A stretch of 64,000 nucleotides of DNA from positions 5,485 through 69,484 of the forward strand of contig CAYPHL010000001.1 in the NCBI GenBank assembly GCA_964410385.1. The letters run 5' to 3'. Positions 1 to 18,922 of the stretch are shown here, in pieces (within the stretch, counting starts at the first letter, position 1; every line of letters begins with the position of its first letter). This DNA is from an uncultured Rikenellaceae bacterium (GTDB taxonomy: Bacteria; Bacteroidota; Bacteroidia; Bacteroidales; VadinHA17). A program made the translations under genes and the position numbers. The notes beneath the pieces are model-generated. The model saw nothing but the letters and a program-made list of their open reading frames with translations. It was not told the origin of the DNA and ran no database searches.

Positions 1-3000
1 TCCGAGATACCTTAATTTTCCTTTATTGAGGACTGCTACCTGGTTGCATGAACTTGAAATATCCTCGATTATATGTGTCGAAAAGATTATAACACGTTCA
101 CGGCTTAATTCGACCAGAAGATTCCTGAACCTGATCCTCTCACGCGGATCGAGCCCTGCCGTAGGCTCATCAACTACAAGTATCCTTGGCAGATGAAGGA
201 GGATCTGGGCAATACCCATTCTCTGTTTCATCCCGCCGGAATAGGAACTGATCTTTTCATGTCTTCGTTCCTCCATATGGACAGCTTTCAGAACGTATGT
301 TACACGTTCTTCCCTTGTGGCGGCATCTATAATATTTTTAAGCATCGCCAGATAATGAAGGTACTCATGCGCTGTCATATTTTCATAACTTCCGAATTCC
401 TGAGGAAGATATCCGATCAGACCCTGAAGTTCCTCACGTTTCTTCTGGGTATCGAGGCCATTTATCCAGACCTTGCCATAGCTTTGCTCGAGTATTCCGC
501 AGATGATCCTCATGAGTGTCGTTTTCCCTGCTCCGTTCGGTCCGAGTAAGCCGAACATACCGTTACCGATATTCAGAGAAACACAACTGAGAGCCTTGAA
601 CGGTTTCTTCTTCTTACCTATCAGAGGAACTGCAGAAACTATCTTGTATATGGTTTTTCTCAGTCCTTTAAACCGGCCCTCCAGCCTGTATATATCTATG
701 TTCTCACCGGAGAGCATCACCCCGGTCTTATATATGAATAACCCGGTAAACCACAGAAATCCAAGTATCAGTACCACGGCCAGGTTATCCCATTTTATCT
801 GGAAGAAGACCAGGTTTAGCAAGGGGATGATCCAGAAGACAAGGAAATCGATCGGGGGGATCATTTTTTTCAGTAATCCTTTTTCCCCTCTGTTAGTCAT
901 ACTTATTAGCAGTTCCCTGAAACGGCTCCAGATAGCAGATAGAAAGAACCATGAAGCAATGCTGAACCAGAAGATCCAGAATCCTTTATTCAGATAAAAA
1001 TAGGTGAAGTAAATCATAAACCCGAAAAGGGGTAGTTGCCAGCTTATCCGTGTCAGATCCTGCCAGCTGGTAATCTTCTTTTCAAGCCCGAGCCTTTCCC
1101 TTATCCGTGCACCCGCTTTCCATTCACGTGCCCACCTGTTTTCCCTTTCGTAGATCTTTACAAGACTCTGAACACGGATGTTTATTTCTTCATCGGGAGG
1201 AATGACAGTTTCCCTGGCCTTTCTCAGGCTGTTCATTATGAACCAGGCTGATGCCGGGACGATTATTACCGAGAGAATGGTTGTGATAAGCTTCCAGACA
1301 AATTTGTCAATCCTTGTATAAATAAGGAATATTAATAAAGCAAATATACCCAGCTGGAGAATTTTATTCTTCCAGTCGAGTGACCTTAACCAATCGAGGG
1401 CATTTTCAAGGCCCGAATAGAATGTAGGTATGAATACAAGGGTAAGAAGGGTGCTGAGAGTAAGGCCTCCGATTACTGTTACTGCAAATGAAGCGCCGAT
1501 AACTGATACAAATTCAGCTTTCCCCATTGCCAGCGGGATCATGGCAATTACAGTTGTCGAAGCAGTGATCAGGATCGGTCTTATCCGGGCTACTCCTGCC
1601 ATCATAAGCGCTCTTGACCTCCGGTTTCCTCTTTTGCGGAGTATATTTGTATAGTCAATAAGGATGATGCCATTATTTACCACCACACCAAGCAGAATAA
1701 GAAAGCCCATCAGGGTATTTGCGTTCAGAAGCGAATTACCGGTGAGAATGAGTGCTATAAGTGAACCCAGGGCAGCAAGGGGAATGCTGAAAAGAAGGAC
1801 AAACGGCAGTGTGAGTGATTCAAACACGGCAGCAAGTATCATAAAGATCAGAAGAAACGCGATCCCGATGAGCTTATAGAATTCCCTGAACTGATCTTCC
1901 TCATGGACCACCTCAACAGCTATGCCGGAGGGAATGGCCAGGCCTGCAATAACCGATTCGATCTCTGAACGGGCTCCATCAAGGAGATCTTTCGATGAGC
2001 TTATTTCACTTTTGAAACTGTATGTTACAGTAACCCTCTTTTCCTGGTTTTCACGATGTATATTGCCCATCCCATAAGCGAAGATGATCCCTGCAAGTTC
2101 ATCCATCTCCATAATCGCACCAGCTGAATTGCTTACTTCAAGGCGTTTCAGGTCATCGATCGATTTATCAGTGTTTTTGTCTTCCAGTGTATCGGCAGAT
2201 GCATACTTGATAATTATGTCATACCTTTCATTTCCCTGTCTGAATACTGCCCCCGATGAATACTCCCTTCCGAAGGTTGCCAGGGCGGAGGAAAGGTTAA
2301 TCAGCGAAAAATTATTTCTCGCGATATAATCCATATCGAAATGAAGCTGAACCTCAGGTTTGTTATCCTGAACATTGACACTTATATTATCTATGGATTC
2401 CAGCTCGTCGACATTCGTCCTGATGTCGTCGGCAAGGTCTTTCATCTGACCGAAATCCTGTCCTTTTATTATTATGCTTTCCGATTCTCTTCCAATGCCA
2501 AGCATCCTCATGAATCCCGAACCCGGATTTACGGTTTCCACACCATCGCCGCTGCTTGTAAATCCTCCGCTGGTTGAAATATTATCCATGCTTATCGCGG
2601 CTGAGGAAATATTCTTTGTTTTTTCAAGGATTTCATTTTTTATCTCCGGAAGGCTCTTTTTACTTTCTTTATCCCAATCTTCCTTAAGACTTATTGTTAC
2701 AGTGGCATTATCCTCACCAATACGGCTGACAATATCCTCTTTTTCAGGGACAGAAGCCAGCCTCGACTCAATTTCAGCTACCACAGCATCTGTTTTTTCA
2801 AGAGTTGACCCTGTTGGCATATTTACGCTTAACCTGAAATCAGGCGTCTCTATTTCACTGGAACTGCTGATGCTAAGTGTGAGGCTGATTAGCAGCGCCG
2901 CAAAGAAAATGACCAGGGTACCGATAATTGTTGCAGCAGGTTTTTTCATGCTGGCCTTTAGTATGAGGAAGTAGGCCTGAATGAGCCGGTCGTGGATGGA

Positions 3001-4506
3001 CAGCTTTTTAAATATCTGTGCATTCCCGATGGATCTCATTGAAAGTAAATAGTTGGTTGCCATCGGGATGAACATCAAAGCCACGGCTAATGAAACAAAT
3101 AGTGTGGAAATAATTGACACTCCGATATTTTTCCCTATTATTCTTATAAGGTAACCTGATGTGAAAATGAAGGGCATGAAAACTATAACAGTCGTCAGGG
3201 TAGATGCAACAATAGCTCTTATAACCTCTGTTGTCCCCTGTTTTACAGAAGTTTCGGTATCTTTACCCGATCCTGCGAGCCTGTAAATATTTTCAAGGAC
3301 AACAACGGAATTGTCGACCAGCATTCCGACAGCCAGTGCTATCCCGACTAGGGTCAGGCTGTTGATTGAAATACCGGTGGCATAAAAGAAGTTAAAGGCT
3401 GTATAGACTGAGACAGGTATTGAAACAGCAATTATTGAAACAAGCCTGAAATTCCTGAGGAAGAACCATAATATAAGGATTGCCAGAAATCCTCCTGTAA
3501 TGGCAAGATTGATTATCTGGTTTATATTTTCTTCCATTGTTTCCGCCCCATTATACTGGACAACTATCTCAACACCCTGAGGAGTCATCTCCCTGTTTAT
3601 TTTATTTATTTCAGAGAGGGCACTATTTGATAGTTTTATAAGGTTAGCCTGGTTGTCATTTACAAGGTTTATTGTAACAGCATCCATTCCGTTAACCCTG
3701 CTGAAAGAAGTCTCTTCCCTGACGCCATAAAATATTTCGGCAATATCTCTCAGGAGTACCGGTCCTTCCTGTCTTACAATTATCCTGCCTATATCCCCGA
3801 CATCTGTATATTCGGATGTAATGTTCACAAAGAACTCGTTGCTCCCGTCTACAACTTTCCCTGCGAAAGTCTTTTCCTTCCCGTTATTATTCAACAGAGT
3901 TCTTACCTGACCCATTGTGATACCGTTTGCCTTGCAGGCACGTTCATCAAGCCTTACCTCAATTGAGTTTTCCTGACCGCCATATACCTGGACACCGGCA
4001 ATACCGTCGATGTTTTCAAGCTTCGGTTTTATTTCCCTGTCGGCAATGTTCCTGATCCTGTCAACACCTCCTTCACCCCTTATCTGAAGTGACATGAACT
4101 GATTTATCATCTGGTCGAGATCGATCCTTATCACACTGATCAGGAAATCTTCGGGGATTGAATTCTTTACCACGTCAATCTTCTCCTGGAGCTTGAGGCT
4201 GGCATACTTCAGATCGGCCTTCTGCGCATAATAAATTGTTATTACACCGAAATTTGATGTGATGTTTGTTTCGATCTTTTCAATATCGTCAAGAGTCCCG
4301 ATAGCCCCTTCAAGGGGGATTACCGCCTGGGTCTCTATATAAGCCGGGTCCATTTCAAGTGGAGTTCCTACTCTTACAATAAGTGTCGGCAGCTCGGGAT
4401 TAGGGATTAATTCGACAGGTAGTTTCTTATAAGAGACATAACCGAGCATTGTGAGCCCGGCGAACAGCATAATTATCAGGATCCTTCTTTTTAGAATAAA
4501 GTCCAT
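1..4506 (-). CDS. RND (AcrB/HAE1-type) efflux permease fused in frame to an extra 6-TM block and an ABC-transporter ATPase domain; C-terminus lies beyond the window (>=1502 codons)
   Basis: ATG at 4506..4504, 17 nt after the stop of the upstream RND gene. Hand translation of the minus strand (codon first bases at positions divisible by 3); triplets 1-1680 checked one by one with no stop, the rest read through once with none seen. Missing from the ORF track only because no stop lies in the window. The first ~1035 aa are RND-like (MDFILKRRILIIMLFAGLTMLGYVSYKKLPVELIPN..., ...VVNNGIILIDYTNILRKRGNRRSRALMMAGVARIRPILITASTTVIAMIPLAMG...). Hydrophobic helices follow at ~1390-710. Then Walker A GPNGAGKT (543..520), signature SGGMKQR (240..220), Walker B ILVVDEP (183..163) and H-loop STH (81..73). 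Confidence 0.8.
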   Translation of the reverse strand, partial: MDFILKRRILIIMLFAGLTMLGYVSYKKLPVELIPNPELPTLIVRVGTPLEMDPAYIETQAVIPLEGAIGTLDDIEKIETNITSNFGVITIYYAQKADLKYASLKLQEKIDVVKNSIPEDFLISVIRIDLDQMINQFMSLQIRGEGGVDRIRNIADREIKPKLENIDGIAGVQVYGGQENSIEVRLDERACKANGITMGQVRTLLNNNGKEKTFAGKVVDGSNEFFVNITSEYTDVGDIGRIIVRQEGPVLLRDIAEIFYGVREETSFSRVNGMDAVTINLVNDNQANLIKLSNSALSEINKINREMTPQGVEIVVQYNGAETMEENINQIINLAITGGFLAILILWFFLRNFRLVSIIAVSIPVSVYTAFNFFYATGISINSLTLVGIALAVGMLVDNSVVVLENIYRLAGSGKDTETSVKQGTTEVIRAIVASTLTTVIVFMPFIFTSGYLIRIIGKNIGVSIISTLFVSLAVALMFIPMATNYLLSMRSIGNAQIFKKLSIHDRLIQAYFLILKASMKKPAATIIGTLVIFFAALLISLTLSISSSSEIETPDFRLSVNMPTGSTLEKTDAVVAEIESRLASVPEKEDIVSRIGEDNATVTISLKEDWDKESKKSLPEIKNEILEKTKNISSAAISMDNISTSGGFTSSGDGVETVNPGSGFMRMLGIGRESESIIIKGQDFGQMKDLADDIRTNVDELESIDNISVNVQDNKPEVQLHFDMDYIARNNFSLINLSSALATFGREYSSGAVFRQGNERYDIIIKYASADTLEDKNTDKSIDDLKRLEVSNSAGAIMEMDELAGIIFAYGMGNIHRENQEKRVTVTYSFKSEISSSKDLLDGARSEIESVIAGLAIPSGIAVEVVHEEDQFREFYKLIGIAFLLIFMILAAVFESLTLPFVLLFSIPLAALGSLIALILTGNSLLNANTLMGFLILLGVVVNNGIILIDYTNILRKRGNRRSRALMMAGVARIRPILITASTTVIAMIPLAMGKAEFVSVIGASFAVTVIGGLTLSTLLTLVFIPTFYSGLENALDWLRSLDWKNKILQLGIFALLIFLIYTRIDKFVWKLITTILSVIIVPASAWFIMNSLRKARETVIPPDEEINIRVQSLVKIYERENRWAREWKAGARIRERLGLEKKITSWQDLTRISWQLPLFGFMIYFTYFYLNKGFWIFWFSIASWFFLSAIWSRFRELLISMTNRGEKGLLKKMIPPIDFLVFWIIPLLNLVFFQIKWDNLAVVLILGFLWFTGLFIYKTGVMLSGENIDIYRLEGRFKGLRKTIYKIVSAVPLIGKKKKPFKALSCVSLNIGNGMFGLLGPNGAGKTTLMRIICGILEQSYGKVWINGLDTQKKREELQGLIGYLPQEFGSYENMTAHEYLHYLAMLKNIIDAATREERVTYVLKAVHMEERRHEKISSYSGGMKQRMGIAQILLHLPRILVVDEPTAGLDPRERIRFRNLLVELSRERVIIFSTHIIEDISSSCNQVAVLNKGKLRYLG

Positions 4507-4523
4507 TTTCTGTCTTATAAGAA

Positions 4524-7500
4524 TTACCCGGGAATGGTCAGAGATTTACTTTTCCCCGTAATATAATTGCTGAAATTAGCGAAGATCCAGTATACACAAG
4601 GTATCACAACCATGGTAAGCAGTGTTGATGATACCAGTCCACCTATTACTGCAAGCGCCATGGGGGCTCTGAGAGAAGCGCTTTCACCAATGCCTATTGT
4701 CAGAGGCAGAAGTGCGAGGATCGTGGTAAGACTTGTCATTAGTATAGGACGAATCCTCTGTGATCCTCCGAGAACTACAGCTTCCCTAATATCCATTCCT
4801 TCCGCCCTCAGCTGGTTGATGCGGTCAATAAGTATAATAGCATTATTGACTGCAATCCCTCCAAGCATGATTATTCCGATATATGCCATCATGTTGAGTG
4901 ATTGGCCAAGAATTATAAAAGTGAGAACCGTTCCGACACCGGCAAGAGGGATCGTAAGCATTATTATGAAAGGTTGAATTAATGATTCAAACTGTGCGGC
5001 AAGTACCATGAATACCAGAACAAGTGAGAGCGTAAGGGCAAAGGTGAGGTTGGACATGGAATCGCGTCGTTTCAGTTCTTCTCCTGTATACTCCATTTTG
5101 TAATCCACCGGAAGTGCTATCTTCTTCAGAGAGGCATCGGAGTACTTTATTACCTTGTCAAAGGCCAGGGCGGGACTGACCATTGCGTAGATATAACAGG
5201 TTCTTGACTGATTCCTGCGGGTAATCTCCCGTGGACTGACAACAGTCTTTATTTCAGCCAGTTCGCTTAAAGGGACCTTTACATTGCCCGCAGTTATCAT
5301 CAGGTCGTGAAGTTGATTGATTGAAACATCTCCCAGTTTAATTGTAATGTCCTTAAGCTCTCCATCCTTTTCGAAATTTCCCGCTGATGATCCTTCAAGA
5401 TAGCTTTTTACCTGGTTAATAACACTTTCTACCGAAACATTGTATAAGCTTGTCTTAAAGCGGTCGACTGCAACTTCTACTTCCGGTGTCCCTTCATCGA
5501 TTGATGTTGATAAATTATATAAGCCGGGATTTTTCTCCAGGATCAGTCTGGCTTCATTGATTATTCTTTCAAGTTCTTCATAATCTTCACCGGAGATTTC
5601 AAGTGCAAAAGGCGATTCTGAGGTTCCCAGGACACTCTGAAGCGCTGTCTCATCTCTTGTGAATGACACTTCCAGTCCGGGGACTGATTTCAGGTATGTA
5701 TCAACCAGTGTGATTGCACTTTCTGTTTCCCGGGCATATTCTTCCTTTAAGATAACTTTCAGGGATGCACTGTTCTCACCCCTGACCGTCGTTGTCTGGT
5801 TTAGGGCGGAAGACTTGTCTTCCCCTGCCTGAGTGTAAATCAGTTCAATCTTATCTCCAAGAAGCCCTCTTATAATTCCTTCAGCAGCTGATGCAGTTGT
5901 ATAAGTTCTGTCAAGACTTGTTCCTTCAGGCAGAGAAAGGCCCACGGTGAACTGGGCCGACTCTGCCCTTGGCATGAATTCGCTTCCCAGCCGGGGGATC
6001 AGCAAAGCAGTTCCGGCCATCAGCAATACAGACAGTATGACTACCAGATAACGTTTTTCGATTATTCTCCTGAGAACATTTGTGTACCATGTGAACTTCA
6101 GAGGCGCACTGATCCTTCTTTCCCTGGTTTTTTTCGAAAAGAAAGTTGATACAAGCATCGGTATCACCAGCATAGCAACGAAAAGGGATGATATAAGTGC
6201 GAAAGCCACTGTCCACGCCTGGTCCCTGAACATTTCTCCTGATGCACCATGAAGGTAAACAATAGGCAGAAAGACAACTATTGTCGTAATAGTTGAGGCT
6301 GTAATCGCTCCCCCTACCTGCCCGGTCCCGGTTATAACAGCTTCTTTCAGGGGCATCCCGTCTTCATGGTTCCTGGTTATGTTCTCAAGAACAACAATGG
6401 CATTGTCGACAAGCATACCGGCTCCCAGAGCAAGACCTCCCAGCGTCATAATGTTAAGTGAAAGATCTCCGAAATACATCAGATTAAATGTAGCAATTAC
6501 CGAAACCGGTATTGCCACACTTATTACAAGTGTTGTTCCTATCCTGCGGAGGAAAATATAAAGCACCAGCACAGCAAGAAAGATCCCCAGGAGAAGGGTG
6601 TTCTTTACTTCTCCAATTGAGTTATTAATAAAAGTACCCTGATCGGCAACCTTAATGAATTCATAACCTGGTAATGCCCTTCCAAGAGCATCAATTGCCT
6701 CATCAAGGCTCTTAACGGCATCTACAGTATTGTATTTCGGTTCCTTGTAAACAGACAGACCGATACACCTTTCGCCGTTTATTGTTACAATGTTCTCGGC
6801 ATCCTTATTTGCAAATCCAACTTTCGCTATATCCCTTAAATAAACAGGTACACGGGTTGAGGCTGAGGTTGAGGTTGAGGCTGAGGCTGAGGTTGAGGCG
6901 GATTGTCTGAAGCCTACAATAATGTTTTCAAGATCCCTCAGGTCTTCAAGTACACTTACACCCTTGACAACGTACTTGGTCCCCATTTCAACTATGGAAC
7001 CGCCCGACACATTTCTGTTATAATTACTTATCTGTGCGGCAATACCGTCAGGGGTAAGCCCGAATGATTCCAGAAGGTAATCGCTCGTCTCAATAACTAC
7101 TTCACTTTCTTCTTTTCCTGTGATCCTCACGTCAGCTACTCCCTCTATCCTTATAATCTCATTACGGATATAATTTTCAGCAACTTTCCTCAGTTCATCC
7201 ATATCAGAAATCTGGTCGTTCTTTAATCCGACGATCATCACAGGGGATGCATTCGGATCATACTGTGAAATTGTAAAATCTTCGAGGTCTGAATTCTGGC
7301 TGAATGAGTTAAGTTCTTTCTGAAGATCGAGGAAAGCTTCGTCCATATCCTTGTTCCAGTTATATTCAACAGTTATTGTTGCGGAACCGGCCTTTGACAC
7401 TGAGGAGACCTGAATCACATCACTCTGCCTCATTGCAAGTGATTCTATCTGATCGACATAGTTTTTTTCTATTTCTTCAGGAGGTTTTTCACCGGATGAA

Positions 7501-7649: not shown

Positions 7650-7654
7650 GGAGG

Positions 7655-8704
7655 CTAAATAATGATTTTAACCTTTGATCTGTTGCTCAGGGTTTCAAAG
7701 CCTCCGGTAACTACCCGTTCGTTCTTTTCCAGCCCTCTGATGATCTCCACATCAGTCAGGTTTTCAAGTCCTGTTTCAACTATCCTTTCTACAGCAATAC
7801 CACGGTCAATGACAAATACCGTTTTTCCTCTCTGTCTTGACAGGATTATGTTTTTCGGGATCACAATAACGGAATCCTTTCTCCGGGTAACAATATCTGC
7901 TTTGACAAACATCCCCGGGCGGAGCAGGAAACCGGCATTATCTATATTAATTGTTCCCTTGAAAGTACGTGTATCTGCATCTATTGCCGGAGATAGCTGT
8001 GTGATCGCACCTGCTATGGTATCTCCCTGAATTGTATAATTAGTAAGCCTGACCTCCTGTCCGGGTTTTATTACAGATATATATTTTTCGGGAAGCCTGA
8101 CATCCATATACATCGTTCTGTAATCCATAATTTTAGCTATAGTTACACCGGAAGCTATTTCGGTCCCCTGTGTATAGTAAGGCAGATCCACAATAACACC
8201 TTCGATGGGAGAGATCACCCTTGTTTTCTGGAGCTTGAGCTTTGAGTTAATAACTGTTGTTTTGGCATTCTCGTAATTGATACCTGCAGTTTTAAGTTCT
8301 TTCAGGGTCACACCTCCTTTTTCATAAAGGGATTCCTGTTTTCTGAGCTCGGTTTCCATAAGTTCCAGGTTCAGCTGATTTGTTTCCATCTGGACTGAGT
8401 TTACATACTCCTCATCCTCCAGCCTTGCAATAATGGCCCCGGTCCTGACCCTGTCGCCAAGCTGCCATAACCTGCCGGTCTGCGGATTCTTCTCAAGAAA
8501 ATATGCTGCGGGGATTTTCGATTTCAGCTCAATCTCCCCTTTCGGGAAAGATGTCCCTGTTGTATTGACATATTCTTCAATCGATCTCAGGCTCAGTTCC
8601 TGAACGCTGACGGGTATCTCGATATCGGCCGTAAGGTTCTGATCACGGTTCCTGCATGCAGTGAATGTTGTAATAATGATTAATAGGGTTATGATCTTTT
8701 TCAT
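7655..8704 (-). CDS. Efflux transporter periplasmic adaptor subunit (HlyD/AcrA MFP family), lipoprotein
   Basis: Lipoprotein signal MKKIITLLIIITTFTAC, a central coiled-coil hairpin (NQLNLELMETELRKQESLYEKGG...) and a beta-barrel C-terminal part. Sits directly upstream of the RND genes. Confidence 0.9.
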   Translation of the reverse strand: MKKIITLLIIITTFTACRNRDQNLTADIEIPVSVQELSLRSIEEYVNTTGTSFPKGEIELKSKIPAAYFLEKNPQTGRLWQLGDRVRTGAIIARLEDEEYVNSVQMETNQLNLELMETELRKQESLYEKGGVTLKELKTAGINYENAKTTVINSKLKLQKTRVISPIEGVIVDLPYYTQGTEIASGVTIAKIMDYRTMYMDVRLPEKYISVIKPGQEVRLTNYTIQGDTIAGAITQLSPAIDADTRTFKGTINIDNAGFLLRPGMFVKADIVTRRKDSVIVIPKNIILSRQRGKTVFVIDRGIAVERIVETGLENLTDVEIIRGLEKNERVVTGGFETLSNRSKVKIII

Positions 8705-8754
8705 TGTTAAAAAATTATAGGGAAAAGATTGACTTTATAATTATTTTGTTATAA

Positions 8755-8830
8755 CCCCCTTCCCGACCTTCCTCCACGGGGGGAAGGAGAGGACGAGGCC
8801 TTTCCCCCCTGGGGGAAATGAGAAAGGGGG
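8755..8830. other. GC-rich structured intercistronic element (outer stem plus two inner hairpins) between the OMF and adaptor genes
   Basis: Hairpin 8767-8787 (CCTTCCTCC-acg-GGGGGAAGG), hairpin 8801-8818 (TTTCCCCC/GGGGGAAA), and outer pairing 8755-8761 with 8824-8830 (CCCCCTT/AAGGGGG). Confidence 0.6.
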
Positions 8831-8866
8831 TAAGAAAATATAAATATAGGCACTCCATGGTTACTG

Positions 8867-10366
8867 TTACATTATTGATTTTTCCATACTTTTTACCGGA
8901 GTCACGGGTTCCTTTTTCTCGAAATCATACAGTGTCTGGATCTTCAGATTAAGCAGTTCAAGCTTATATGAGATAAGGGAATTTGTATAGGAAAGCTGTT
9001 TTTCGGAAAGCTGGTTCTGATATATATTAAGGTCCATCCCGGTCAGATCCCCGTTGCGGTATTTTTCAAGGTTCAGATCATATGTAAGCTGCGCATTTGT
9101 TACATTCTGCTGTGCTATTCCAATCTGGTTACGCAGGTTGATCAGGTTCCTGTAAACCTGCCTTACCCCAAGAATTATATCGTTCTGCTCCTCTTCGAAA
9201 GATACATTTGCCGATTCGATGGTCGCCTGCGATGCTTTGATCCTTGACTTCCTTTCTCCCCAGTCCCAGAGAGGTACTGAAAATGAAAGAGAAATACTTT
9301 CGTTATCGGTGGGGCTCTCATAAACATTCCCTATGTTTTCATTATCCCCGAAAAGTCCTATTGAAAGTCCAAGGTTTCCCTTGAATTCATTGAGAGCTTT
9401 TGTCTGAATAAGATCAAACTCTGCGGTTTCAATATTTATTTTGCTCTGCCTCAGTTCCATCCTGTTCGCGAGACCCTGATCAATCGCAAAAGCCACATCT
9501 ATCTGAACAGTATCGACATCGATATTGGGCAGAACCATAAAATCATCATAAAGGCTCATTCCAATTATTATCTTGAAGTCGTCCTTCGCATTTTCATATT
9601 CCACCTGGCTGTTCTCGTATTCCGATCTTGAGGAAGCAAGGTTGAGCTCGGCCTGGAACATTTCTTCACGGGCTGATATGCCGGCATCGACTTTGTTTTT
9701 GATAACTTCATGGCTCTGTTGCATATTCTGGTAAGCCTGCCGGGCTATCTCCATGCTCTGCTGTTTCTGATAAACGAAATAAAATGCCTGCGTCACACCT
9801 TTTTCGAGGGATAAAAGCTGAATTGCATAGTTAAGCTGTGAATTCTCAAGGGCCAGCTGTAACTCTTTAAGCTGAAGTTTTGTACGGTTATAGGTAAAGA
9901 GAGGCTGATCGAGATTCAGTGAAAGCCGGTTGCTGAATCCCTTTGTTGTTCTTTCGGCAAATTCACTATATGAATCAGTATAACCAAAGCGGTTGGTCAG
10001 TGAAACAACTGCATCGGTCAGAACTATAGGCTGGGCTACAGTGAACAGCCCGAAGCTTTCTGTGGTCCTTGTTGTATTCCATTTGGATATAAGATCATTG
10101 AATTCCCTGTTCTGGTTGTATCCGATCGGATTTATTGATAATGAGAACTGGGATTTCAGCGCAGCATTCTGGGCATTGAGATTCTCCTGGTTCCTGATGA
10201 GGTTGAGCTTTGTCCTTTTCATATTGGGACTATTGTTTTCTGCTATCTGCATAGCCTGCTGAAGGGTCATTCCTTCCTGGGGATATACATCTACTATGTT
10301 GAATATTAATATACAACATGACAAGAAAATCCTTATAGCCGGTTTGAAGTGCGTTTTCATTATCAA
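8867..10366 (-). CDS. TolC-family outer membrane efflux protein
   Basis: 499 aa with an N-terminal signal and two internally similar helical/coiled halves typical of OMF proteins (…LNLIRNQENLNAQNAALKSQF…, …VRQVYRNLINLRNQIGIAQQNV…). Operon context with adaptor and RND genes. Confidence 0.88.
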   Translation of the reverse strand: MIMKTHFKPAIRIFLSCCILIFNIVDVYPQEGMTLQQAMQIAENNSPNMKRTKLNLIRNQENLNAQNAALKSQFSLSINPIGYNQNREFNDLISKWNTTRTTESFGLFTVAQPIVLTDAVVSLTNRFGYTDSYSEFAERTTKGFSNRLSLNLDQPLFTYNRTKLQLKELQLALENSQLNYAIQLLSLEKGVTQAFYFVYQKQQSMEIARQAYQNMQQSHEVIKNKVDAGISAREEMFQAELNLASSRSEYENSQVEYENAKDDFKIIIGMSLYDDFMVLPNIDVDTVQIDVAFAIDQGLANRMELRQSKINIETAEFDLIQTKALNEFKGNLGLSIGLFGDNENIGNVYESPTDNESISLSFSVPLWDWGERKSRIKASQATIESANVSFEEEQNDIILGVRQVYRNLINLRNQIGIAQQNVTNAQLTYDLNLEKYRNGDLTGMDLNIYQNQLSEKQLSYTNSLISYKLELLNLKIQTLYDFEKKEPVTPVKSMEKSIM

Positions 10367-10485
10367 TCTTCTTAATTCTTAATTCGTTGTTCTTAATTCT
10401 TACTTATAATTTTTGCCGGAACCAAAGAAAATGCCTCAGACAATTCCTTCTCTGTGCTCTGCGTTCTGAGCCAATCTCTCCCCAT

Positions 10486-10565
10486 CTCCCCCTCTCCTCA
10501 TCACGCCCTCTCCTCATCTCCCTCTCTCCTCATCCCCCCTTTCCTCATCACCCCCTCTCCCTTTC
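10486..10565. repeat. CT-rich ~16-nt tandem repeat (CTCCTCATC core x4) between the permease-fusion and OMF genes
   Basis: Cores at 10494, 10510, 10526 and 10541. Reads GATGAGGAG on the transcribed minus strand. Confidence 0.85.
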
Positions 10566-10571
10566 TTTCCT

Positions 10572-13500
10572 TCACTCCGCTTTCACCCACCTGACAGCAT
10601 CCCCGATAACTATCCTGCCCGTCGACTGGTTTGTAAGTTCAACCTTTGCACTGTCGTGTGAGAAATAATACCGTCCGAGATTATTCCATCCGGGTTCCGC
10701 ATTCTCAAAATCGACAGTTATTTCATCCTTTCCTTCATCGTGATAAACCAGGTAATGCATATCCTTATATGGTGAATCGCCTCTGCCTTCTCCTCCGGGA
10801 GGCGCCGGTGGTCCTCCGGCCGGACCCTGTCCACGCCCGGTACGTACAACGACTCTTTCACCGGTCTTACCTACAAAACAATAAACATCATAGTAACCCG
10901 GCTCATCGATCTTTACAGACCAGGTAACCTTCCTGTCACCTGTACCACTGCGGGTAAATACTGAAGACAATACATATCTCCCATAATATGCCGATTGGAT
11001 GGCTTTCTCCCATTTCTCGGGAGCCCAGTACATGTTTATCTCACTGTATTCGTTGCGGTCATTATTTTTTACCCCGAGCAGTTTTTTAAGCAGACCGGGG
11101 GTCTCAATATTGGTATTTTTAAATCCCGGATCCTCATTGTCGACTATTAATTCACCGGGCGATGTCAAAGCGGGTAGCGGGAGTTTTTCTTCACCTTCAA
11201 TTATGGTTGTACCTGATCGTATTTTCCTGATCTCGTTAACGGGAAGGGTGACCTCTCCTGGTATGTTCCTGGCAAACAAAGTATTGATTATCAACTCCCT
11301 TGGTTCAGCATCAAGTATCGTTCTTATTGTCTTTGCATTCCCGGGTTCCATCACGACAATAGATGAAATATCATCTGTTTCCATACCCCTTCCCTGGATG
11401 GTCCTCGAAATTGATGTTCCTCCGGGTACTGGTCTTACTATGTCCGTTATTACCTGCCCGCTCCCTCTGCCTGAACCTCCGGTACGGAATGCGAGATAGA
11501 ATATGCCTGTAACTGTTTCAGGATTCAGCGCTGTGAAAGTAACCAGATATCTTACCCTGTCGCCAACGACAATTTCTCCGGCTTCAATATCCCTGAAAAG
11601 AAATCCGGGTTGTTCTTTCCTGTTGAACCAGCTGTCGAGATAAGGGTATATGCCGAATCCGAATTTCTGTTTCAGATCCTCGTCGAATCGGTCTATATCG
11701 ATCCTCCGGAATCTATGCTCATCAATATACTTTCCGAACCATTCGTTAAACTCCCTGATCCCGGCTTTCGATCTCATTATATTGAAAAGATAATCTCCTT
11801 TCAGGGTGACAATAGCTCTGATGGTATCACTTCCCGGATTCGAAGCAAGTATCTCCCTGAAGCTTCCGTTCCTGAGGATCAGATTAGCCCTGTCCTGCTC
11901 GGACACTCCTCCCATTGACCGTCTTATCCCGGCTTCGGGATTAGTCACTTTCTGGAGGTGGGATTCGAAAACGGAATTAATCACCGGGTATTCCGAGGAA
12001 TAAAAATTATTTTTGAAAAAGTAAAAACTCGGCCCAAGACGATAGCGGACCGGTTCGTTTATTACAGTTCCGTTGTAAAACCTGAAATCCTCTCCGGTGA
12101 TAAATGTGTTTCTTATAAAATCATTAAAAATCCTGACCTGTAATTCTTTATCGGTTATGACCTGGTTATTCCTGGCCATATTCTTTTTCTGACGCGAAAA
12201 TCTCTTTCCAAAGCCGGCATTCCGAAGCGTTGACAATCTTTCCGGAAGAAGTACCATTGATGGCTGTACCTCTGCTCTTGTCTGGGTGCTCATCCTGGGA
12301 TACGAAAAGAACTGAACAGGTACTTCCAGAAAGCTCAGTGTTCTAAATGGATATTTAGTTGAGAAATTTGTTTCGAGATCTCTCATTAATCCCGATACAA
12401 GATGAGATAAAGTGTCTTTAAGTTCTGCAAGATCTTTTTTGTAGTAATCATTCCCGGGGAAATAGAATGTAAAGTATTTTACCGAGTCCACTGTAAGCGT
12501 ATCTGAACTATAATTGCCGATTGCAAGAGTTAGACCGGTGAGTGGTACTTCATTTTCGAAAATGACAGCTCCGTCTTCTTTTTTCATTGTACCCTGGGCG
12601 ACCGGGACAAGTCTGCTGTCGGTCCTTACCCTGAGAGTGAACCTTATAAAATCGGTCTTGATCCTTGCAGGATTTGAAGGGTAATAGTTAAGTCCCGGAA
12701 CAGGATACCAGTGTGTTTCCGGTGTCAGGAGAACATAATCATCCCGTAGAAAGGCCTGACGCTTATTTATATTCAGCATTTCCATCCGGTAAGGTGTAAC
12801 GTTATAATTCTCGTTATGATCCGGAAAACAGAAATTCTCGTCGATCGTACCCGAGTAAGTTATTGTTAAACTATCGGTACAGCCAGGCTGAAGAATGCTG
12901 TCACGGTCAACTTCTATTATATGATTTATCCTTTCAAAAACCAAAGCCTGTCCGTTTGATGTAACTGTACTTACTGCCAGACCCGGATTAAGGGAAAGCA
13001 CATAGCGGTCGATCCCTGCAGGGTTATCATTTGTAAATTTCAGTCTTGCAGTCGCTTCAATTGTCTCTCCTTTATGACGGCAATCTATTTGTGCGTCTGT
13101 GAGTGCCGCGAAGAGGATATCTTCATATCTCCTGCTTACCTCGATAACCCGGTTCTTTGAATCCTTATTCTTTTTCCAGGTCTTCATTACGTTGAATCCG
13201 CAGAATCCGGCGCCTGCAGTAAAAACAACAAGCAGTATCACCGAAAGGGCTGTATGTATCTTAGACTGAGGCAATCTTTTAAATAACAATACTGTAGCAA
13301 AAACCAGGGCAAGTCCGAGGCACAGGTAGAAGCCTCTCTGGCTCAGAATCAACCCCGGATCATCAAAACCTATGATACCCGATTTAAAAAGAGGCAAACC
13401 GAAAGCCATATAGTCGAAAATAAATCCTGCCCTGTACCATAGCCAGAACATATCGAGAGCCGCAATCCCCAGCAGGATCAGGAAAGTTATTGCCTGATTC

Positions 13501-14018
13501 CTGATGACAGACATCATCATAAATGCCAGACCGAGGCTGAAAATTATCGTTGGCAGGCAGATCAGAAGAAGATACCAGAGATATGACAGGATATCCACCT
13601 CCATTCTTTTTGAAATTATATTGATGATAAGGGCAATGGAGAGGATTACGAGATCAAGACTCAGAAAAAGCCTGAGTATACCTGTTGTCTTGCCGCTTAC
13701 ATATTCAAAGTTCGACATTGAGCGTGTGTACAGAACTTCATTTGTATCAAGCTTTTTATCACGCTTCAGGAAATCAGCGGCAAGGAAAATGACGATCAAT
13801 GCCTGGCCTATATTTAAAAGGTACAGGTTGACATGAGGTACGGATGAAGAGATTGATATCATTTCCCATCCTTCTTCACCAACCGGTGAAAAGAGACCTA
13901 TGTTCATGAAGGTAAAGATCGTCAGGGCCCCTATCGAGAACAACCTGAAGAACCAGCTTCTCCTGAGTATCCTGGCTTCGTATTTTGCTACGGTTCTTAT
14001 GTTATGAAGAAATGACAT
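10572..14018 (-). CDS. Large membrane protein: ABC-2-type permease-like N-terminal multi-TM region fused to a ~850-aa extracytoplasmic region (degenerate M1-aminopeptidase-like, golvesin/CBM-like C-terminal module)
   Basis: N-terminal ~280 aa has about 7 hydrophobic helices and begins 15 nt after the ABC ATPase gene stop. The middle has YPFRTLSFLEVPV resembling the M1-peptidase core, but no GAMEN or HEXXH. The C-terminus (GYYDVYCFV...WNNLGRYYFSHDSAKVELTNQSTGRIVIGDAVRWV) resembles golvesin C-terminal-like domains. The domain calls are inference. Confidence 0.6.
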   Translation of the reverse strand: MSFLHNIRTVAKYEARILRRSWFFRLFSIGALTIFTFMNIGLFSPVGEEGWEMISISSSVPHVNLYLLNIGQALIVIFLAADFLKRDKKLDTNEVLYTRSMSNFEYVSGKTTGILRLFLSLDLVILSIALIINIISKRMEVDILSYLWYLLLICLPTIIFSLGLAFMMMSVIRNQAITFLILLGIAALDMFWLWYRAGFIFDYMAFGLPLFKSGIIGFDDPGLILSQRGFYLCLGLALVFATVLLFKRLPQSKIHTALSVILLVVFTAGAGFCGFNVMKTWKKNKDSKNRVIEVSRRYEDILFAALTDAQIDCRHKGETIEATARLKFTNDNPAGIDRYVLSLNPGLAVSTVTSNGQALVFERINHIIEVDRDSILQPGCTDSLTITYSGTIDENFCFPDHNENYNVTPYRMEMLNINKRQAFLRDDYVLLTPETHWYPVPGLNYYPSNPARIKTDFIRFTLRVRTDSRLVPVAQGTMKKEDGAVIFENEVPLTGLTLAIGNYSSDTLTVDSVKYFTFYFPGNDYYKKDLAELKDTLSHLVSGLMRDLETNFSTKYPFRTLSFLEVPVQFFSYPRMSTQTRAEVQPSMVLLPERLSTLRNAGFGKRFSRQKKNMARNNQVITDKELQVRIFNDFIRNTFITGEDFRFYNGTVINEPVRYRLGPSFYFFKNNFYSSEYPVINSVFESHLQKVTNPEAGIRRSMGGVSEQDRANLILRNGSFREILASNPGSDTIRAIVTLKGDYLFNIMRSKAGIREFNEWFGKYIDEHRFRRIDIDRFDEDLKQKFGFGIYPYLDSWFNRKEQPGFLFRDIEAGEIVVGDRVRYLVTFTALNPETVTGIFYLAFRTGGSGRGSGQVITDIVRPVPGGTSISRTIQGRGMETDDISSIVVMEPGNAKTIRTILDAEPRELIINTLFARNIPGEVTLPVNEIRKIRSGTTIIEGEEKLPLPALTSPGELIVDNEDPGFKNTNIETPGLLKKLLGVKNNDRNEYSEINMYWAPEKWEKAIQSAYYGRYVLSSVFTRSGTGDRKVTWSVKIDEPGYYDVYCFVGKTGERVVVRTGRGQGPAGGPPAPPGGEGRGDSPYKDMHYLVYHDEGKDEITVDFENAEPGWNNLGRYYFSHDSAKVELTNQSTGRIVIGDAVRWVKAE

Positions 14019-14033
14019 GTCCTTATCCTGAAA

Positions 14034-14930
14034 TCATTCCGAAATGTCTGCATGAAGCTTATGTTCCATGTAATAAACATAAGCATGTTCAATGTTTGGT
14101 ATTATTGTTTCCGAGCCGTCAAATTCCGGGCGGTTATCCGAAACAACCTGAACCTCCCAGCCTGTTTCAACCGGGATCGTCGAGATCACGTTATAACGTT
14201 CCTTTACAGATTCGTATTCGGCAGGACTGAGATTAAGCCGGAACACATGTCCTTCGGCATTCCTGACTAGGTTTTCGGGAGAACCTGAAAACACAAGTTC
14301 ACCCCTGTTCAGCAGAGCCATACCCTGACATGTCGATGAAATATCCCCGACAATATGGGTTGAGAGGATAATTGTCACATCGTGCTGACTCAGCTGTGAC
14401 AGTATATTCCTGAACCTGATCCTTTCGTCGGGGTCAAGTCCGGTCGTCGGTTCGTCAACAATTATGAGCTTCGGATTTCCAATAAGCGCCTGTGCAATAC
14501 CCAGGCGCCGCTTCATCCCCCCCGACAGTTTGTTAGCCTGCCGGTCGCGTACCTCCAGCAATCCCACCTGGTTAAGAAGACGGTCAACCTCGCTTATCCT
14601 AAGCTTCCGGTTTTTTATTCCTGCAAGGGCACCTGCATAATCAAGAAATTCCCATGTCCTGAGTGAGGTGAAAAAACGGAAATCCTGGGGAAGATACCCG
14701 AGGATGCTCCGGAGCCACCTCCGGTGCTTCTGAATATCCTTTCCATCTATCAGAACAATTCCTGATGTGGGTTTCATCAAGGTGACCATGATCCTCATAA
14801 GGCTCGATTTACCTGCACCATTGGGCCCCAGAAGCCCGAACATACCCGTCCCGAACTCAAGATCGATATCCTTAAGGGCACGATTGCCGTTAGGATATAT
14901 TTTGCTGAGCCCTCTGATTTCAATTTTCAT
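14034..14930 (-). CDS. ABC transporter ATP-binding protein (ABC-2/DrrA-like subfamily)
   Basis: Walker A GPNGAGKS, Q-loop YLPQ, signature LSGGMKRR, Walker B LIIVDEPTTGLD, H-loop STH. First gene of the minus-strand efflux locus. Confidence 0.95.
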   Translation of the reverse strand: MKIEIRGLSKIYPNGNRALKDIDLEFGTGMFGLLGPNGAGKSSLMRIMVTLMKPTSGIVLIDGKDIQKHRRWLRSILGYLPQDFRFFTSLRTWEFLDYAGALAGIKNRKLRISEVDRLLNQVGLLEVRDRQANKLSGGMKRRLGIAQALIGNPKLIIVDEPTTGLDPDERIRFRNILSQLSQHDVTIILSTHIVGDISSTCQGMALLNRGELVFSGSPENLVRNAEGHVFRLNLSPAEYESVKERYNVISTIPVETGWEVQVVSDNRPEFDGSETIIPNIEHAYVYYMEHKLHADISE

Positions 14931-16349: not shown

Positions 16350-16364
16350 TTAAATTAATAAACA

Positions 16365-17408: not shown

Positions 17409-17523
17409 ATCCACGGTCGGATTTAAATTTTCTGATATTGTTCATGTTAATCCGGAATTAAATAGTTTGTTCGGGAATTTTTATTTTTTTTGTATCCGGT
17501 TTTAATTACAATTATTTTTTCTG

Positions 17524-18918: not shown

Positions 18919-18922
18919 TTCA

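What the first reader, a model, noticed from the sequence alone, without database searches (positions are those of the whole stretch)
1..14930. Six-gene efflux locus that mixes ABC and RND modules and carries two paralogous NBDs
One strand carries, in order, an ABC ATPase, a 1148-aa permease fusion, a TolC-like OMF, an MFP adaptor, RND-1 and the RND-2::TMD::NBD fusion. The free ATPase (14034-14930) and the fused NBD (1-705) share long identical strings. These include GMFGLLGPNGAGK, GYLPQ, SGGMK-R-GIAQ, VDEPT-GLDP-ERIRFRN and STHI--DISS-C, so they are close paralogs. One possibility is a heterodimeric ABC engine, with one NBD free and one tethered to an RND pump, sharing a single adaptor and OMF. 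Tandem RND paralogs alone would be MdtBC-like; the combination with ABC parts is not a standard tripartite layout.
Basis: partly seen in the sequence, partly recalled or inferred. Interest (0 to 1): 0.7.

Follow-up and report, generated by a model that had tools for sequence, protein, structure and literature searches.

The report
RND efflux pump fused to ABC ATPase
A conserved Bacteroidota operon encodes a proton-driven (RND) efflux pump subunit joined in one ~1,585-residue protein to an ATP-driven (ABC) motor domain; I found no description of this hybrid of two pump classes in the literature I could search, and it has no experimental characterisation that I could find.

Summary
One strand carries an ABC ATPase, a 1148-aa membrane protein, an OMF, an MFP, RND-1, and an uninterrupted ORF joining RND-2, a membrane linker and an ABC ATPase domain (NBD). 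The fusion is not an artefact: it is intact (1565-1616 codons) in 29 of 30 species genomes that hold the whole gene, including cultured Prolixibacter, Draconibacterium, Marivirga, Parabacteroides and Bacteroides strains. Gene order is conserved across Bacteroidales, Marinilabiliales, Cytophagales and a Calditrichaceae MAG, and mostly in a Latescibacterota genome.

- The two NBDs are not close paralogs. They are about 45% identical and not sister clades, and the shared strings are subfamily signatures.
- A seventh gene, a ~235-aa ABC-2-like permease, follows the fused NBD in all 37 related loci. It lies just beyond the window edge.
- The fused "TMD" is a family-specific six-helix linker. It splits the NBD: strand β1 with the A-loop lies ahead of four of the helices.
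- The 1148-aa protein is an ABC-2-like permease carrying a motif-less M1-peptidase-like periplasmic domain.

The best reading is an ABC-2 exporter tethered to a heteromeric RND tripartite pump for two-stage export. Whether the two NBDs pair remains open. I found no literature on this architecture.

The parts
14034..14930 (-). ATPase-A: free ABC ATPase (298 aa) of the DrrA/GldA/ABCA-like subfamily, with a C-terminal extra domain. Motifs: A-loop SKIY at residues 9-12, Walker A at 35, Q-loop YLPQ at 79, signature SGGMKRR at 136, Walker B IVDEPT at 157, H-loop STHI at 190.
   Evidence: GldA and DrrA models hit at 182 bits, below their cutoffs of 402.6 and 312.45.
10572..14018 (-). Perm-A (1148 aa). 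Residues 1-298 hold about seven TM helices and look like an ABC-2 permease (window 13125-14018). Residues ~305-800 form an M1-aminopeptidase-like domain without HEXXH or GAMEN (window ~11619-13106). Further β-domains follow, then Golvesin_C at residues 1085-1145 (window 10584-10766).
   Evidence: Pfam Golvesin_C E = 4e-14. Hydropathy. The AF2 model is weak (mean pLDDT 54), but the listed top 50 Foldseek PDB matches are all M1 peptidases (best E = 2e-12). No HEXXH or GAMEN motif. Orthologues hit PF12679 ABC2_membrane_2 (L001) and weakly PF01433 Peptidase_M1 (L086).
10476..10560 (-). Intergenic 16-nt purine-rich tandem repeat (5.4 copies) between Perm-A and the OMF gene. Function unknown.
   Evidence: A repeat with a different unit sits at the same site in L083.
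8867..10366 (-). Outer-membrane factor (TolC-like). The probable start is the ATG at 10360.
   Evidence: Two PF02321 OEP stretches, E = 3e-44. TIGR01844 hit at 101 bits, below its cutoff. Sequence read.
8752..8833 (-). GC-rich hairpin in the OMF-MFP intergenic gap. It would lie inside a polycistronic transcript. Function unknown.
   Evidence: MFE -48.5 kcal/mol, z = -3.3. Nearly identical in L083. No Rfam family.
7655..8704 (-). Periplasmic adaptor (MFP), 349 aa.
   Evidence: TIGR01730 RND_mfp scores 176 bits, above its cutoff of 94.9. HlyD_D23 hit.
4524..7649 (-). RND-1 (1041 aa), a full-length RND permease. TM4 reads LVDN (window 6402-6413) and TM10 reads VNN (window 4842-4850). AcrB D407 is kept, D408 is N and K940 is N. 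R971 is kept.
   Evidence: ACR_tran E = 7e-225. Motifs, placed against AcrB by similarity to RND-2, which was aligned to a PDB pump.
1402..4506 (-). RND-2 domain (residues 1-1035 of the fusion), 27% identical to RND-1. TM4 reads LVDN (window 3310-3321) and TM10 reads VNN (window 1672-1680).
   Evidence: ACR_tran at residues 2-1031, E = 3e-163. Alignment to PDB RND pumps. Motifs. Identity to RND-1.
607..1401 (-). Family-specific linker (residues 1036-1300). It holds TM13-14 (window 1225-1362), then a basic cytoplasmic loop carrying NBD strand β1 and the A-loop, EEINIRVQSLVKIYER (residues 1106-1121, window 1144-1191), then TM15-18 (window 730-1050).
   Evidence: No Pfam hit. Only 95 clusters in 1.84 billion representatives, and every full-length one is a 1550-1585 aa fusion. 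Hydropathy. The splice test adds 12.5 bits, z about 7.7. The AF2 model places a strand at the equivalent position. The motif I.I.NL.KIY is conserved out to Latescibacterota.
1..606 (-). Core of the fused NBD (NBD-B), residues 1301-1502. The window edge cuts it about 83 codons before the stop. Motifs: Walker A GPNGAGKT (window 520-543), YLPQ (400-411), SGGMKQR (220-240), Walker B VVDEPT (160-177), GLDP (145-156), STHI (70-81).
   Evidence: The missing C-terminus and the overlapping downstream permease gene are seen in the closest relative, L066.

Best explanation
The window holds six of the seven genes of a conserved operon for one envelope-spanning export machine. The machine joins two classes of pump.

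Shown:
- RND-1 and RND-2 are deep paralogs (27% identical). They are always found together with one MFP and, in nearly all loci, an OMF. That layout matches an MdtABC-type heteromeric RND tripartite pump.
- RND-2 continues in the same polypeptide into a family-specific six-helix membrane linker and a catalytically canonical ABC ATPase domain.
- That ATPase domain is itself split. Its first strand and A-loop (I.I.NL.KIY) lie in the cytoplasmic loop after the first two linker helices. The rest of the domain follows four more helices. The NBD is therefore attached to the membrane at three points.
- Directly after the fused NBD comes a ~235-aa ABC-2-like permease gene, adjacent to or overlapping the NBD's stop codon.
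- At the other end of the operon sit a second ATPase of the same subfamily and a second ABC-2-like permease. This permease carries a large periplasmic M1-peptidase-like domain without catalytic motifs, plus a Golvesin_C domain.

Inferred:
- The ABC-2 module or modules use ATP to move a substrate out of the cytoplasm or the inner leaflet. The substrate is probably amphipathic or peptide-like.
- The tether keeps that module beside the RND trimer. The RND pump can then take the substrate from the outer leaflet or periplasm and expel it through the MFP and OMF. This would be a hard-wired two-stage efflux.

Not decided here: whether the two NBDs and two permeases form one heterodimeric ABC transporter (as in YbhFSR) or two separate homodimeric ones.
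For: - Continuous ORF with full ACR_tran plus ABC_tran.
- The fusion is intact at 1565-1616 codons in 29 of 30 GTDB species genomes that hold the whole gene.
- The full-length proteins are on record for cultured strains: WP_025863973.1 (Prolixibacter), WP_013453215.1 (Marivirga tractuosa), WP_075966940.1 (Parabacteroides massiliensis) and WP_163216957.1 (Bacteroides sp. 224).
- The order Perm-A, OMF, MFP, RND-1, RND-2::NBD is conserved in about 30 loci from Bacteroidales, Marinilabiliales, Cytophagales and a Calditrichaceae MAG. It is mostly conserved in a Latescibacterota genome, where no OMF hit was seen.
- The full seven-gene order, including ATPase-A, is seen in L083, L084, L085 and L086, with gaps of 0-70 nt or overlaps.
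- The seventh gene is present after the fusion in all 37 related loci. Five of 19 orthologues hit ABC2_membrane_3 (best E = 5e-6), and others hit ABC2_membrane_2 or _4.
- The linker occurs only in these fusions, and its residues are conserved across phyla.
- Evidence for the split NBD: the GldA model covers positions 13-210 in the fused NBD but 1-263 in the free one. Grafting residues 1106-1121 onto the core adds 12.5 bits against an HMM of free ATPases, where the mean over all linker 16-mers is 0.8 bits with sd 1.5. Latescibacterota orthologues read I(R/E)IRNLTKIYG at that position. The AF2 model has a β-strand there.
- All catalytic motifs are canonical in both NBDs.
- No terminator-like site lies on the coding strand in either of the two long intergenic gaps, Perm-A/OMF and OMF/MFP.
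Against: - There are no transcript, interaction or transport data. The substrate is unknown, and genes flanking the operon differ between lineages.
- Hand-over from the ABC part to the RND part is inferred from architecture only.
- An NBD dimer has two-fold symmetry and an RND assembly has three-fold symmetry. Stoichiometry is therefore unresolved.
- The AF2 models are mediocre (mean pLDDT 70 and 54). No coordinates were available, so β1 pairing with the NBD sheet was not seen directly.
- The window and L083 have two longer intergenic gaps (about 160 and 205 nt) with a repeat and a hairpin. Internal promoters or processing sites cannot be excluded.
- ABC-2 membership of both permeases rests on weak or orthologue-level hits.
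Confidence: 0.55

Rival explanations
1. One heterodimeric ABC engine, now extended. ATPase-A pairs with the RND-tethered NBD-B. Perm-A pairs with the seventh-gene permease. Together they form a single asymmetric ABC-2 transporter, like YbhF with YbhS and YbhR, docked to one RND-2 protomer of a trimer made of two RND-1 and one RND-2.
For: - Two NBD genes and two ABC-2-like permease genes are strictly co-conserved in one operon.
- Both NBDs belong to one subfamily and both carry the C-terminal extra domain.
- The two permeases align collinearly from their N-termini and share the D/E..T.E.L...(R/S)..(Y/F)..GK-type motif (hhalign E = 0.015).
- A single tethered NBD per RND trimer would need a partner NBD.
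Against: - Each NBD is immediately followed by its own permease gene, which is the usual layout of self-contained homodimeric ABC-2 transporters.
- Both NBDs have complete consensus motifs, so there is no degenerate site.
- The NBDs are no closer to each other (mean 45%) than to ATPases of unrelated genomes (46-47%).
- The hhalign probability is only 3%.
Confidence: 0.25
2. ATP-energised or ATP-gated RND pump. The tethered NBD acts on the RND pump itself through the six-helix linker. It would drive or license the RND conformational cycle and would replace or supplement proton coupling.
For: - Both RND-1 and RND-2 lack the full AcrB-type proton relay. TM4 reads D-N where AcrB has D407-D408, and TM10 reads N where AcrB has K940. 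This is conserved in nearly all orthologues.
- The NBD is attached to the membrane at three points next to RND TM12.
- The linker has no similarity to any ABC permease.
Against: - D407, R971 and T978 equivalents are kept, so a reduced proton or Na+ relay remains possible.
- RND-1 has the same D-N/N pattern but no NBD.
- A dedicated ABC-2-like permease gene sits right after the NBD, which gives the NBD an ordinary partner.
- I had no control set to show how common the D-N/N pattern is among RND pumps without NBDs. Only one unrelated RND was on hand, and it reads DD.
Confidence: 0.12
3. Incidental gene fusion of neighbours. Adjacent genes of independent transporters that share a substrate or regulon became fused, with no mechanical coupling between the RND and ABC parts.
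For: Operon neighbours do fuse. Every domain has an ordinary stand-alone counterpart.
Against: - The junction is not a short read-through. It is a 265-residue, six-helix linker with residues invariant across the aligned relatives and motifs conserved into other phyla.
- No unfused version was found among 1.84 billion representative proteins. The shorter hits that I checked are contig-edge fragments.
- The NBD is itself interrupted by linker helices.
Confidence: 0.06
4. Assembly artefact or pseudogene. A lost stop codon or a frameshift joined two genes.
For: Three related loci (L001, L002, L035) show RND-2 split into two ORFs. The protein search returned only fragments of at most 825 aa.
Against: - The two breaks inspected (L001, L002) sit at homopolymer runs, at different positions, in assemblies that look long-read from their contig names.
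- 29 of 30 other genomes, including finished isolate genomes, have the intact gene.
- The fragment-only list reflects how that search ranks hits. Exact look-ups found full-length clusters.
Confidence: 0.01

Closest known systems
MdtABC-TolC / MuxABC-OpmB (heteromeric RND tripartite pumps)
   Same: Two paralogous RND permease genes in tandem with a single MFP, working with an OMF. Both RNDs here give sub-threshold hits to the MdtB and MdtC models.
   Different: - Scores are far below the equivalog cutoffs (about 250-360 bits against 1584-1774).
- RND-1 and RND-2 are only 27% identical.
- The proton-relay triad reads D-N/N instead of D-D/K.
- RND-2 carries six extra TM helices and an ABC ATPase domain.
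- Two ABC-2 modules flank the RND core.
YbhGFSR of E. coli (MFP plus a tandem-NBD ATPase plus two different ABC-2 permeases). Named from my own knowledge and from the titles listed.
   Same: An ABC-2-type exporter with two NBDs and two distinct permeases, encoded together with an MFP.
   Different: Here the two NBDs are on different polypeptides, one free and one at the end of an RND pump. One permease carries a periplasmic domain of about 850 aa. RND permeases and an OMF lie in the same operon. Homology to YbhF, YbhS or YbhR was not tested directly.
MacAB-TolC (tripartite ABC efflux pump)
   Same: An ATP-driven transporter that works with an MFP and an OMF.
   Different: No FtsX or MacB_PCD domains are found in any protein of the locus. 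The NBDs belong to the DrrA/GldA/ABCA-like subfamily, not the MacB type.
Two-stage efflux by cooperation of single-component inner-membrane transporters with AcrAB-TolC. This is established knowledge, cited from memory.
   Same: The proposed logic is the same: one transporter brings the substrate to the periplasmic side and an RND pump expels it across the outer membrane.
   Different: In the known cases the two transporters are separate, unlinked proteins. Here they are joined covalently and encoded in one operon.
GldA / DrrA / NosF / ABCA-type ABC ATPases with ABC-2 (type V) permeases
   Same: These are the best sequence and structure matches for both NBDs: GldA and DrrA models, ABCA1, ABCA4 and NosF, and TM_1403 (4yer) and NosF by fold. 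Both NBDs carry the C-terminal extra domain.
   Different: Both NBDs score below every curated cutoff. In NBD-B, β1 and the A-loop are separated from the core by an insertion of about 180 residues with four TM helices.
Bacterial 'ABC transporter permease/M1 family aminopeptidase' fusion proteins. This is an NCBI product name recalled from memory and was not checked.
   Same: An N-terminal ABC-2-like membrane domain followed by an M1-peptidase-like periplasmic domain.
   Different: Perm-A has no HEXXH or GAMEN motif. It gives no Pfam Peptidase_M1 hit, although the Prolixibacter orthologue gives a weak one. It ends in a Golvesin_C domain.

Membership tests
RND (PF00873) tripartite efflux pump | Full-length 12-TM permease with two large periplasmic loops | tested here: met
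   ACR_tran covers model positions 1-1020 in RND-1 and 3-1018 in RND-2.
RND (PF00873) tripartite efflux pump | MFP adaptor and OMF channel encoded with the permease | tested here: met
   TIGR01730 is above its cutoff, and there are two OEP stretches. The arrangement is conserved in about 30 loci.
HAE-1 type RND (AcrB/MexB-like) | Proton-relay residues D407, D408 (TM4) and K940 (TM10) | tested here: not met
   TM4 reads VDN and TM10 reads VNN in both RNDs. D408 is N and K940 is N. D407, R971 and T978 are kept.
MdtB / MdtC equivalogs (NCBIfam NF007798, NF007905) | Score above the curated cutoff | tested here: not met
   RND-1 scores 360 and 346 bits. RND-2 scores 246 and 246 bits. The cutoffs are 1584 and 1774.
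ABC transporter ATPase (PF00005) | Walker A, Q-loop, signature, Walker B with catalytic Glu, D-loop and H-loop | tested here: met
   All motifs are present in both NBDs. ABC_tran is above its cutoff in both.
ABC transporter ATPase (PF00005) | A contiguous domain with β1 and the A-loop about 23 residues before Walker A | tested here: not met
   This holds for ATPase-A only (Y12 to G35). In NBD-B the KIY A-loop is at residue 1119 and Walker A starts at 1322, with four TM helices between them.
GldA (TIGR03522) / DrrA (TIGR01188) | Score above the curated cutoff | tested here: not met
   Against GldA, NBD-B scores 171 and ATPase-A 182 bits (cutoff 402.6). Against DrrA, NBD-B scores 158 and ATPase-A 182 bits (cutoff 312.45).
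ABC-2 family permease (PF12679 / PF12698 / PF12730) | Profile match of the membrane domain | tested here: inconclusive
   The window's Perm-A gives no hit, but its L001 orthologue carries PF12679. For the seventh gene, 5 of 19 orthologues hit PF12698 (best E = 4.9e-6), 4 hit PF12679 and 1 hits PF12730, all below gathering scores.
MacB-type tripartite ABC pump | FtsX membrane domain with a MacB periplasmic core domain | tested here: not met
   No FtsX or MacB_PCD hit in any protein of the locus.
M1 zinc aminopeptidase | HEXXH-(18)-E zinc site and GAMEN exopeptidase motif | tested here: not met
   Neither motif is present in Perm-A. There is fold-level similarity only, from a low-confidence model.
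Obligate heterodimeric ABC ATPase pair | Physical pairing of the two different NBDs, often with one degenerate site | not testable with these tools
   Both sites are consensus. Pairing needs biochemistry or a multimer structure.

The most novel reading that the evidence does not exclude
The tethered, membrane-attached NBD does not merely sit beside the RND pump. It would drive or gate the pump's conformational cycle through the six-helix linker. This would make the first ATP-coupled RND transporter. It would fit with both RND paralogs lacking the canonical D-D/K proton relay.
Probability: 0.12. Interest if true: 0.95.

Novelty: new variant of a known kind. Interest (0 to 1): 0.68.

Why it matters
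RND pumps run on an ion gradient and ABC pumps run on ATP. They are treated as separate solutions to efflux that at most cooperate as independent proteins. This operon joins them covalently, and the arrangement is conserved across several Bacteroidota orders and into other phyla.

If the parts work together, the system offers a natural test of two-stage efflux: substrate hand-over from an inner-membrane exporter to a periplasm-capturing RND pump. It also bears on how a two-fold ABC motor docks to a three-fold RND assembly. In the most novel reading, it would show whether ATP can drive an RND cycle.

The split NBD, with β1 and the A-loop separated from the core by four TM helices, is also an unusual ABC topology.

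Members occur in cultured genera (Marivirga, Prolixibacter, Draconibacterium, Parabacteroides, Bacteroides), which should allow the hypotheses to be tested experimentally. Databases currently label the protein only as 'efflux RND transporter permease subunit', which hides the ATPase.

Tried and rejected
- Exact look-up of the window's RND-1 in the contig index found nothing on record, so the window could not be extended to the left.
- The search for homologous proteins on the linker plus NBD listed only fragments of at most 825 aa. This briefly suggested a real gene split or programmed frameshift. I rejected that after reading the junction DNA and finding intact genes in 29 of 30 genomes and full-length clusters.
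- I tested whether the fusion's membrane linker is a degenerate ABC permease. hhalign against Perm-A gave nothing. A full HMMER search found it only in these fusions. Pfam gave nothing.
- A second β1 candidate, NIDIYRLEGRF (residues 1268-1279), adds only 5 bits. It is not conserved in Latescibacterota and is not a strand in the model. I rejected it.
- I looked for a stand-alone 'linker plus NBD' protein. The best candidate, P0208 (526 aa), sits 64 nt from the end of a 2.4-kb contig and is a fragment.
- PDB sequence searches with Perm-A and with the seventh-gene profile gave nothing.
- Foldseek on the fusion model returned only NBD matches, so it said nothing about the linker.
- Six literature searches found no paper on an RND-ABC fusion, and one further attempt failed on syntax.
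- Rfam found no family for the intergenic elements.
- A control for how common the D-N/N relay pattern is could not be built. Only one unrelated RND was on hand.
- The sigma-70 promoter scan is uninformative. It found 18 sites against 15.6 expected, and Bacteroidota promoters differ from that consensus.

Full report
**What is in the window**

The minus strand of 1-14930 carries six consecutive genes.
- ATPase-A: 14930-14034, 298 aa.
- A 1148-aa membrane protein, here called Perm-A: 14018-10572.
- An OMF: 10366-8867.
- An MFP: 8704-7655.
- RND-1: 7649-4524, 1041 aa.
- One open frame from the ATG at 4506 to base 1, with 1502 codons and no stop.

Pfam finds a complete ACR_tran domain (residues 2-1031) and an ABC_tran domain (1311-1450) in that last frame. 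NCBIfam agrees with all assignments. No equivalog cutoff is reached except the generic MFP model.

**The fusion is real**

The first protein search returned only fragments of at most 825 aa. Two long metagenome contigs showed RND-2 split in two. The junction DNA shows frameshifts at homopolymer runs, at different positions, in assemblies that look long-read from their contig names.

A scan of one genome per GTDB species found 35 loci that match the linker plus NBD. In 29 of the 30 that hold the whole gene, RND-2, linker and NBD form one ORF of 1565-1616 codons. Exact look-ups show the full-length proteins are in RefSeq for cultured strains:
- Prolixibacter bellariivorans, WP_025863973.1
- Draconibacterium species
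- Marivirga tractuosa, WP_013453215.1
- Parabacteroides massiliensis, WP_075966940.1
- Bacteroides sp. 224

They are named only 'efflux RND transporter permease subunit'. JGI calls them 'AcrB/ABC-type ... ATPase subunit'.

**The linkage is conserved, and there is a seventh gene**

In about 30 loci the order Perm-A, OMF, MFP, RND-1, RND-2::NBD is kept. The taxa are Bacteroidales, Marinilabiliales, Cytophagales and a Calditrichaceae MAG, plus one MAG labelled Eubacteriales. A Latescibacterota genome keeps most of the order, but I saw no OMF hit there.

Neighbourhoods that reach far enough upstream also show ATPase-A in first position. These are L083 (a close relative), L084 (Marivirga tractuosa), L085 (Parabacteroides) and L086 (Prolixibacter). 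Their intergenic gaps are 0-70 nt, or the genes overlap.

All 37 related loci have a further gene of 232-244 aa directly after the fused NBD. In the closest relative it overlaps the NBD's stop codon. This gene lies just beyond the left edge of the window, which also cuts the NBD about 83 codons short.

Its product is a polytopic membrane protein. Among 19 orthologues, 5 hit ABC2_membrane_3 (best E = 5e-6), and others hit ABC2_membrane_2 or _4. UniRef names one orthologue an ABC-2 type transporter. It aligns collinearly, though weakly, with the N-terminal membrane domain of Perm-A (hhalign E = 0.015).

So the operon has two pairs of ATPase followed by ABC-2-like permease. These pairs flank an OMF-MFP-RND-RND core.

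**The two NBDs are not close paralogs**

The tree used 31 fused NBDs, 3 locus-linked free ATPases and 41 free ATPases from unrelated genomes. The fused NBDs form one clade and the linked ATPases form another, and the two are not sisters. Mean identities are:
- 45% between linked ATPases and fused NBDs
- 46% between fused NBDs and unrelated ATPases
- 47% between linked ATPases and unrelated ATPases

The shared strings are subfamily signatures. The nearest characterised relatives of both NBDs are GldA, DrrA, NosF and ABCA-type NBDs.

**The linker and the split NBD**

Residues 1036-1300 match no Pfam family and no ABC permease. A full HMMER search of 1.84 billion representative proteins found only 95 clusters. 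Every full-length one is a 1550-1585 aa fusion with the linker at about residues 1030-1290. The one apparent stand-alone version is a contig-edge fragment.

Hydropathy gives three helical hairpins (TM13-14, 15-16 and 17-18) separated by basic cytoplasmic loops.

The loop after TM14 carries EEINIRVQSLVKIYER. Four results identify this as the NBD's first strand and A-loop:
- The GldA model aligns to the fused NBD only from position 13. It aligns to ATPase-A from position 1.
- Grafting this 16-mer onto the NBD core adds 12.5 bits against an HMM of free ATPases. It is the best of all linker 16-mers, whose mean gain is 0.8 bits with sd 1.5.
- In Latescibacterota the segment reads I(R/E)IRNLTKIYG, which is a textbook NBD N-terminus.
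- The AF2 model (mean pLDDT 70) puts a β-strand there.

The A-loop Tyr lies 203 residues before Walker A. In ATPase-A the distance is 23 residues. The NBD is thus interrupted by an insertion of about 180 residues with four TM helices, and it is tied to the membrane at three points. I could not inspect coordinates, so strand pairing is inferred.

**Perm-A**

Perm-A has about seven TM helices followed by about 850 periplasmic residues. Pfam sees only a C-terminal Golvesin_C domain. The AF2 model is weak (mean pLDDT 54). Even so, all of the listed top 50 Foldseek PDB matches are M1 aminopeptidases such as IRAP, ERAP1 and the Deinococcus M1 enzyme (best E = 2e-12). The Prolixibacter orthologue has a weak Peptidase_M1 hit. 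HEXXH and GAMEN are absent. I read this as a catalytically inactive M1-like domain that may bind substrate. That reading is tentative.

**RND coupling residues**

I aligned RND-2 to a solved RND pump (PDB 7cz9). By AcrB numbering recalled from memory, RND-2 keeps D407, R971 and T978. It has N at D408 and N at K940. RND-1 shows the same pattern, and it holds in nearly all orthologues of both. I had no adequate control for how common this pattern is among ordinary RND pumps. I treat it as an observation that keeps the 'ATP-coupled RND' reading alive, not as evidence for it.

**Interpretation**

The architecture is shown. It is a conserved seven-gene operon for a heteromeric RND tripartite pump whose second permease is covalently tethered to an ABC ATPase. 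That ATPase's likely permease partner is the next gene, and a second ATPase-permease pair sits at the front of the operon.

The mechanism is inferred. I favour a hard-wired two-stage exporter (confidence 0.55). In it the ABC-2 part moves substrate to the periplasmic side, and the RND part expels it through the MFP and OMF.

The rivals are:
Two distinct permeases make it more plausible. The pairwise gene layout and the fully canonical sites in both NBDs count against it.
- Direct ATP driving or gating of the RND pump (0.12).
- An incidental fusion (0.06).
- An artefact (0.01).

**Novelty**

Every module belongs to a known kind. I found no description of the covalent RND-ABC combination, the dedicated linker or the split NBD in six full-text searches. 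The library does not cover most subscription journals or TCDB, so I cannot exclude a prior mention. I rate it a new variant of a known kind, with interest 0.68.

Noticed in passing
window 10476-10560 (also 10369-10402): The Perm-A/OMF intergenic gap holds a 16-nt purine-rich tandem repeat of 5.4 copies (GGGGTGATGAGGAGAG on the coding strand). A 7-nt TTCTTAA repeat of 4.9 copies lies just upstream of the OMF start. The relative L083 has a repeat with a different unit (GGTGAGA, about 15 copies) at the same site, so the repeat is positionally conserved but variable in sequence.
   Followed up: partly
window 8752-8833, minus strand: A GC-rich hairpin lies in the OMF/MFP intergenic gap (MFE -48.5 kcal/mol, z = -3.3). 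It is almost identical in L083, although the flanking proteins are only about 77% identical. It matches no Rfam family, and its exact 16-mer is absent from the other loci.
   Followed up: partly
window 15096-19699, plus strand: Divergently upstream of the operon lie an HD-domain protein, lpxD, a fused lpxC/fabZ and lpxA, which are lipid A synthesis genes. The same neighbours are found in the close relative L083. Flanks in other lineages, seen only downstream of the operon, share no genes.
   Followed up: partly
just beyond window base 1 (seen in L066:539-1252 and 36 other loci): A conserved ABC-2-like permease gene of 232-244 aa follows the fused NBD, and in L066 it overlaps the NBD's stop codon. 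By synteny it should lie just left of the window.
   Followed up: yes
L001:9990-10010, L002:9912-9932, L035: RND-2 is broken by frameshifts in these related loci. Where inspected (L001 and L002), the breaks sit at homopolymer runs in assemblies that look long-read from their contig names. In addition, the word-indexed protein search listed only fragments even though full-length clusters exist. This matters for anyone counting this family from gene calls.
   Followed up: yes
L004:4980 (RND-1 TM4): One orthologue of RND-1 reads VDD instead of VDN in TM4. Three RND-2 orthologues read DT or DS. The second relay position is therefore not absolutely fixed.
   Followed up: no
window 31534-32121, plus strand: Another ABC-ATPase-like stretch, 29% identical to ATPase-A, lies elsewhere in the window.
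   Followed up: no
L033 (contig CAYFVQ010000257.1): A contig binned as 'uncultured Eubacteriales' carries OMF-MFP-RND-1-RND-2::NBD plus the seventh gene. The contig starts too close to the OMF gene to show Perm-A or ATPase-A. An OMF and MFP in a Firmicutes bin suggests mis-binning rather than true occurrence.
   Followed up: no
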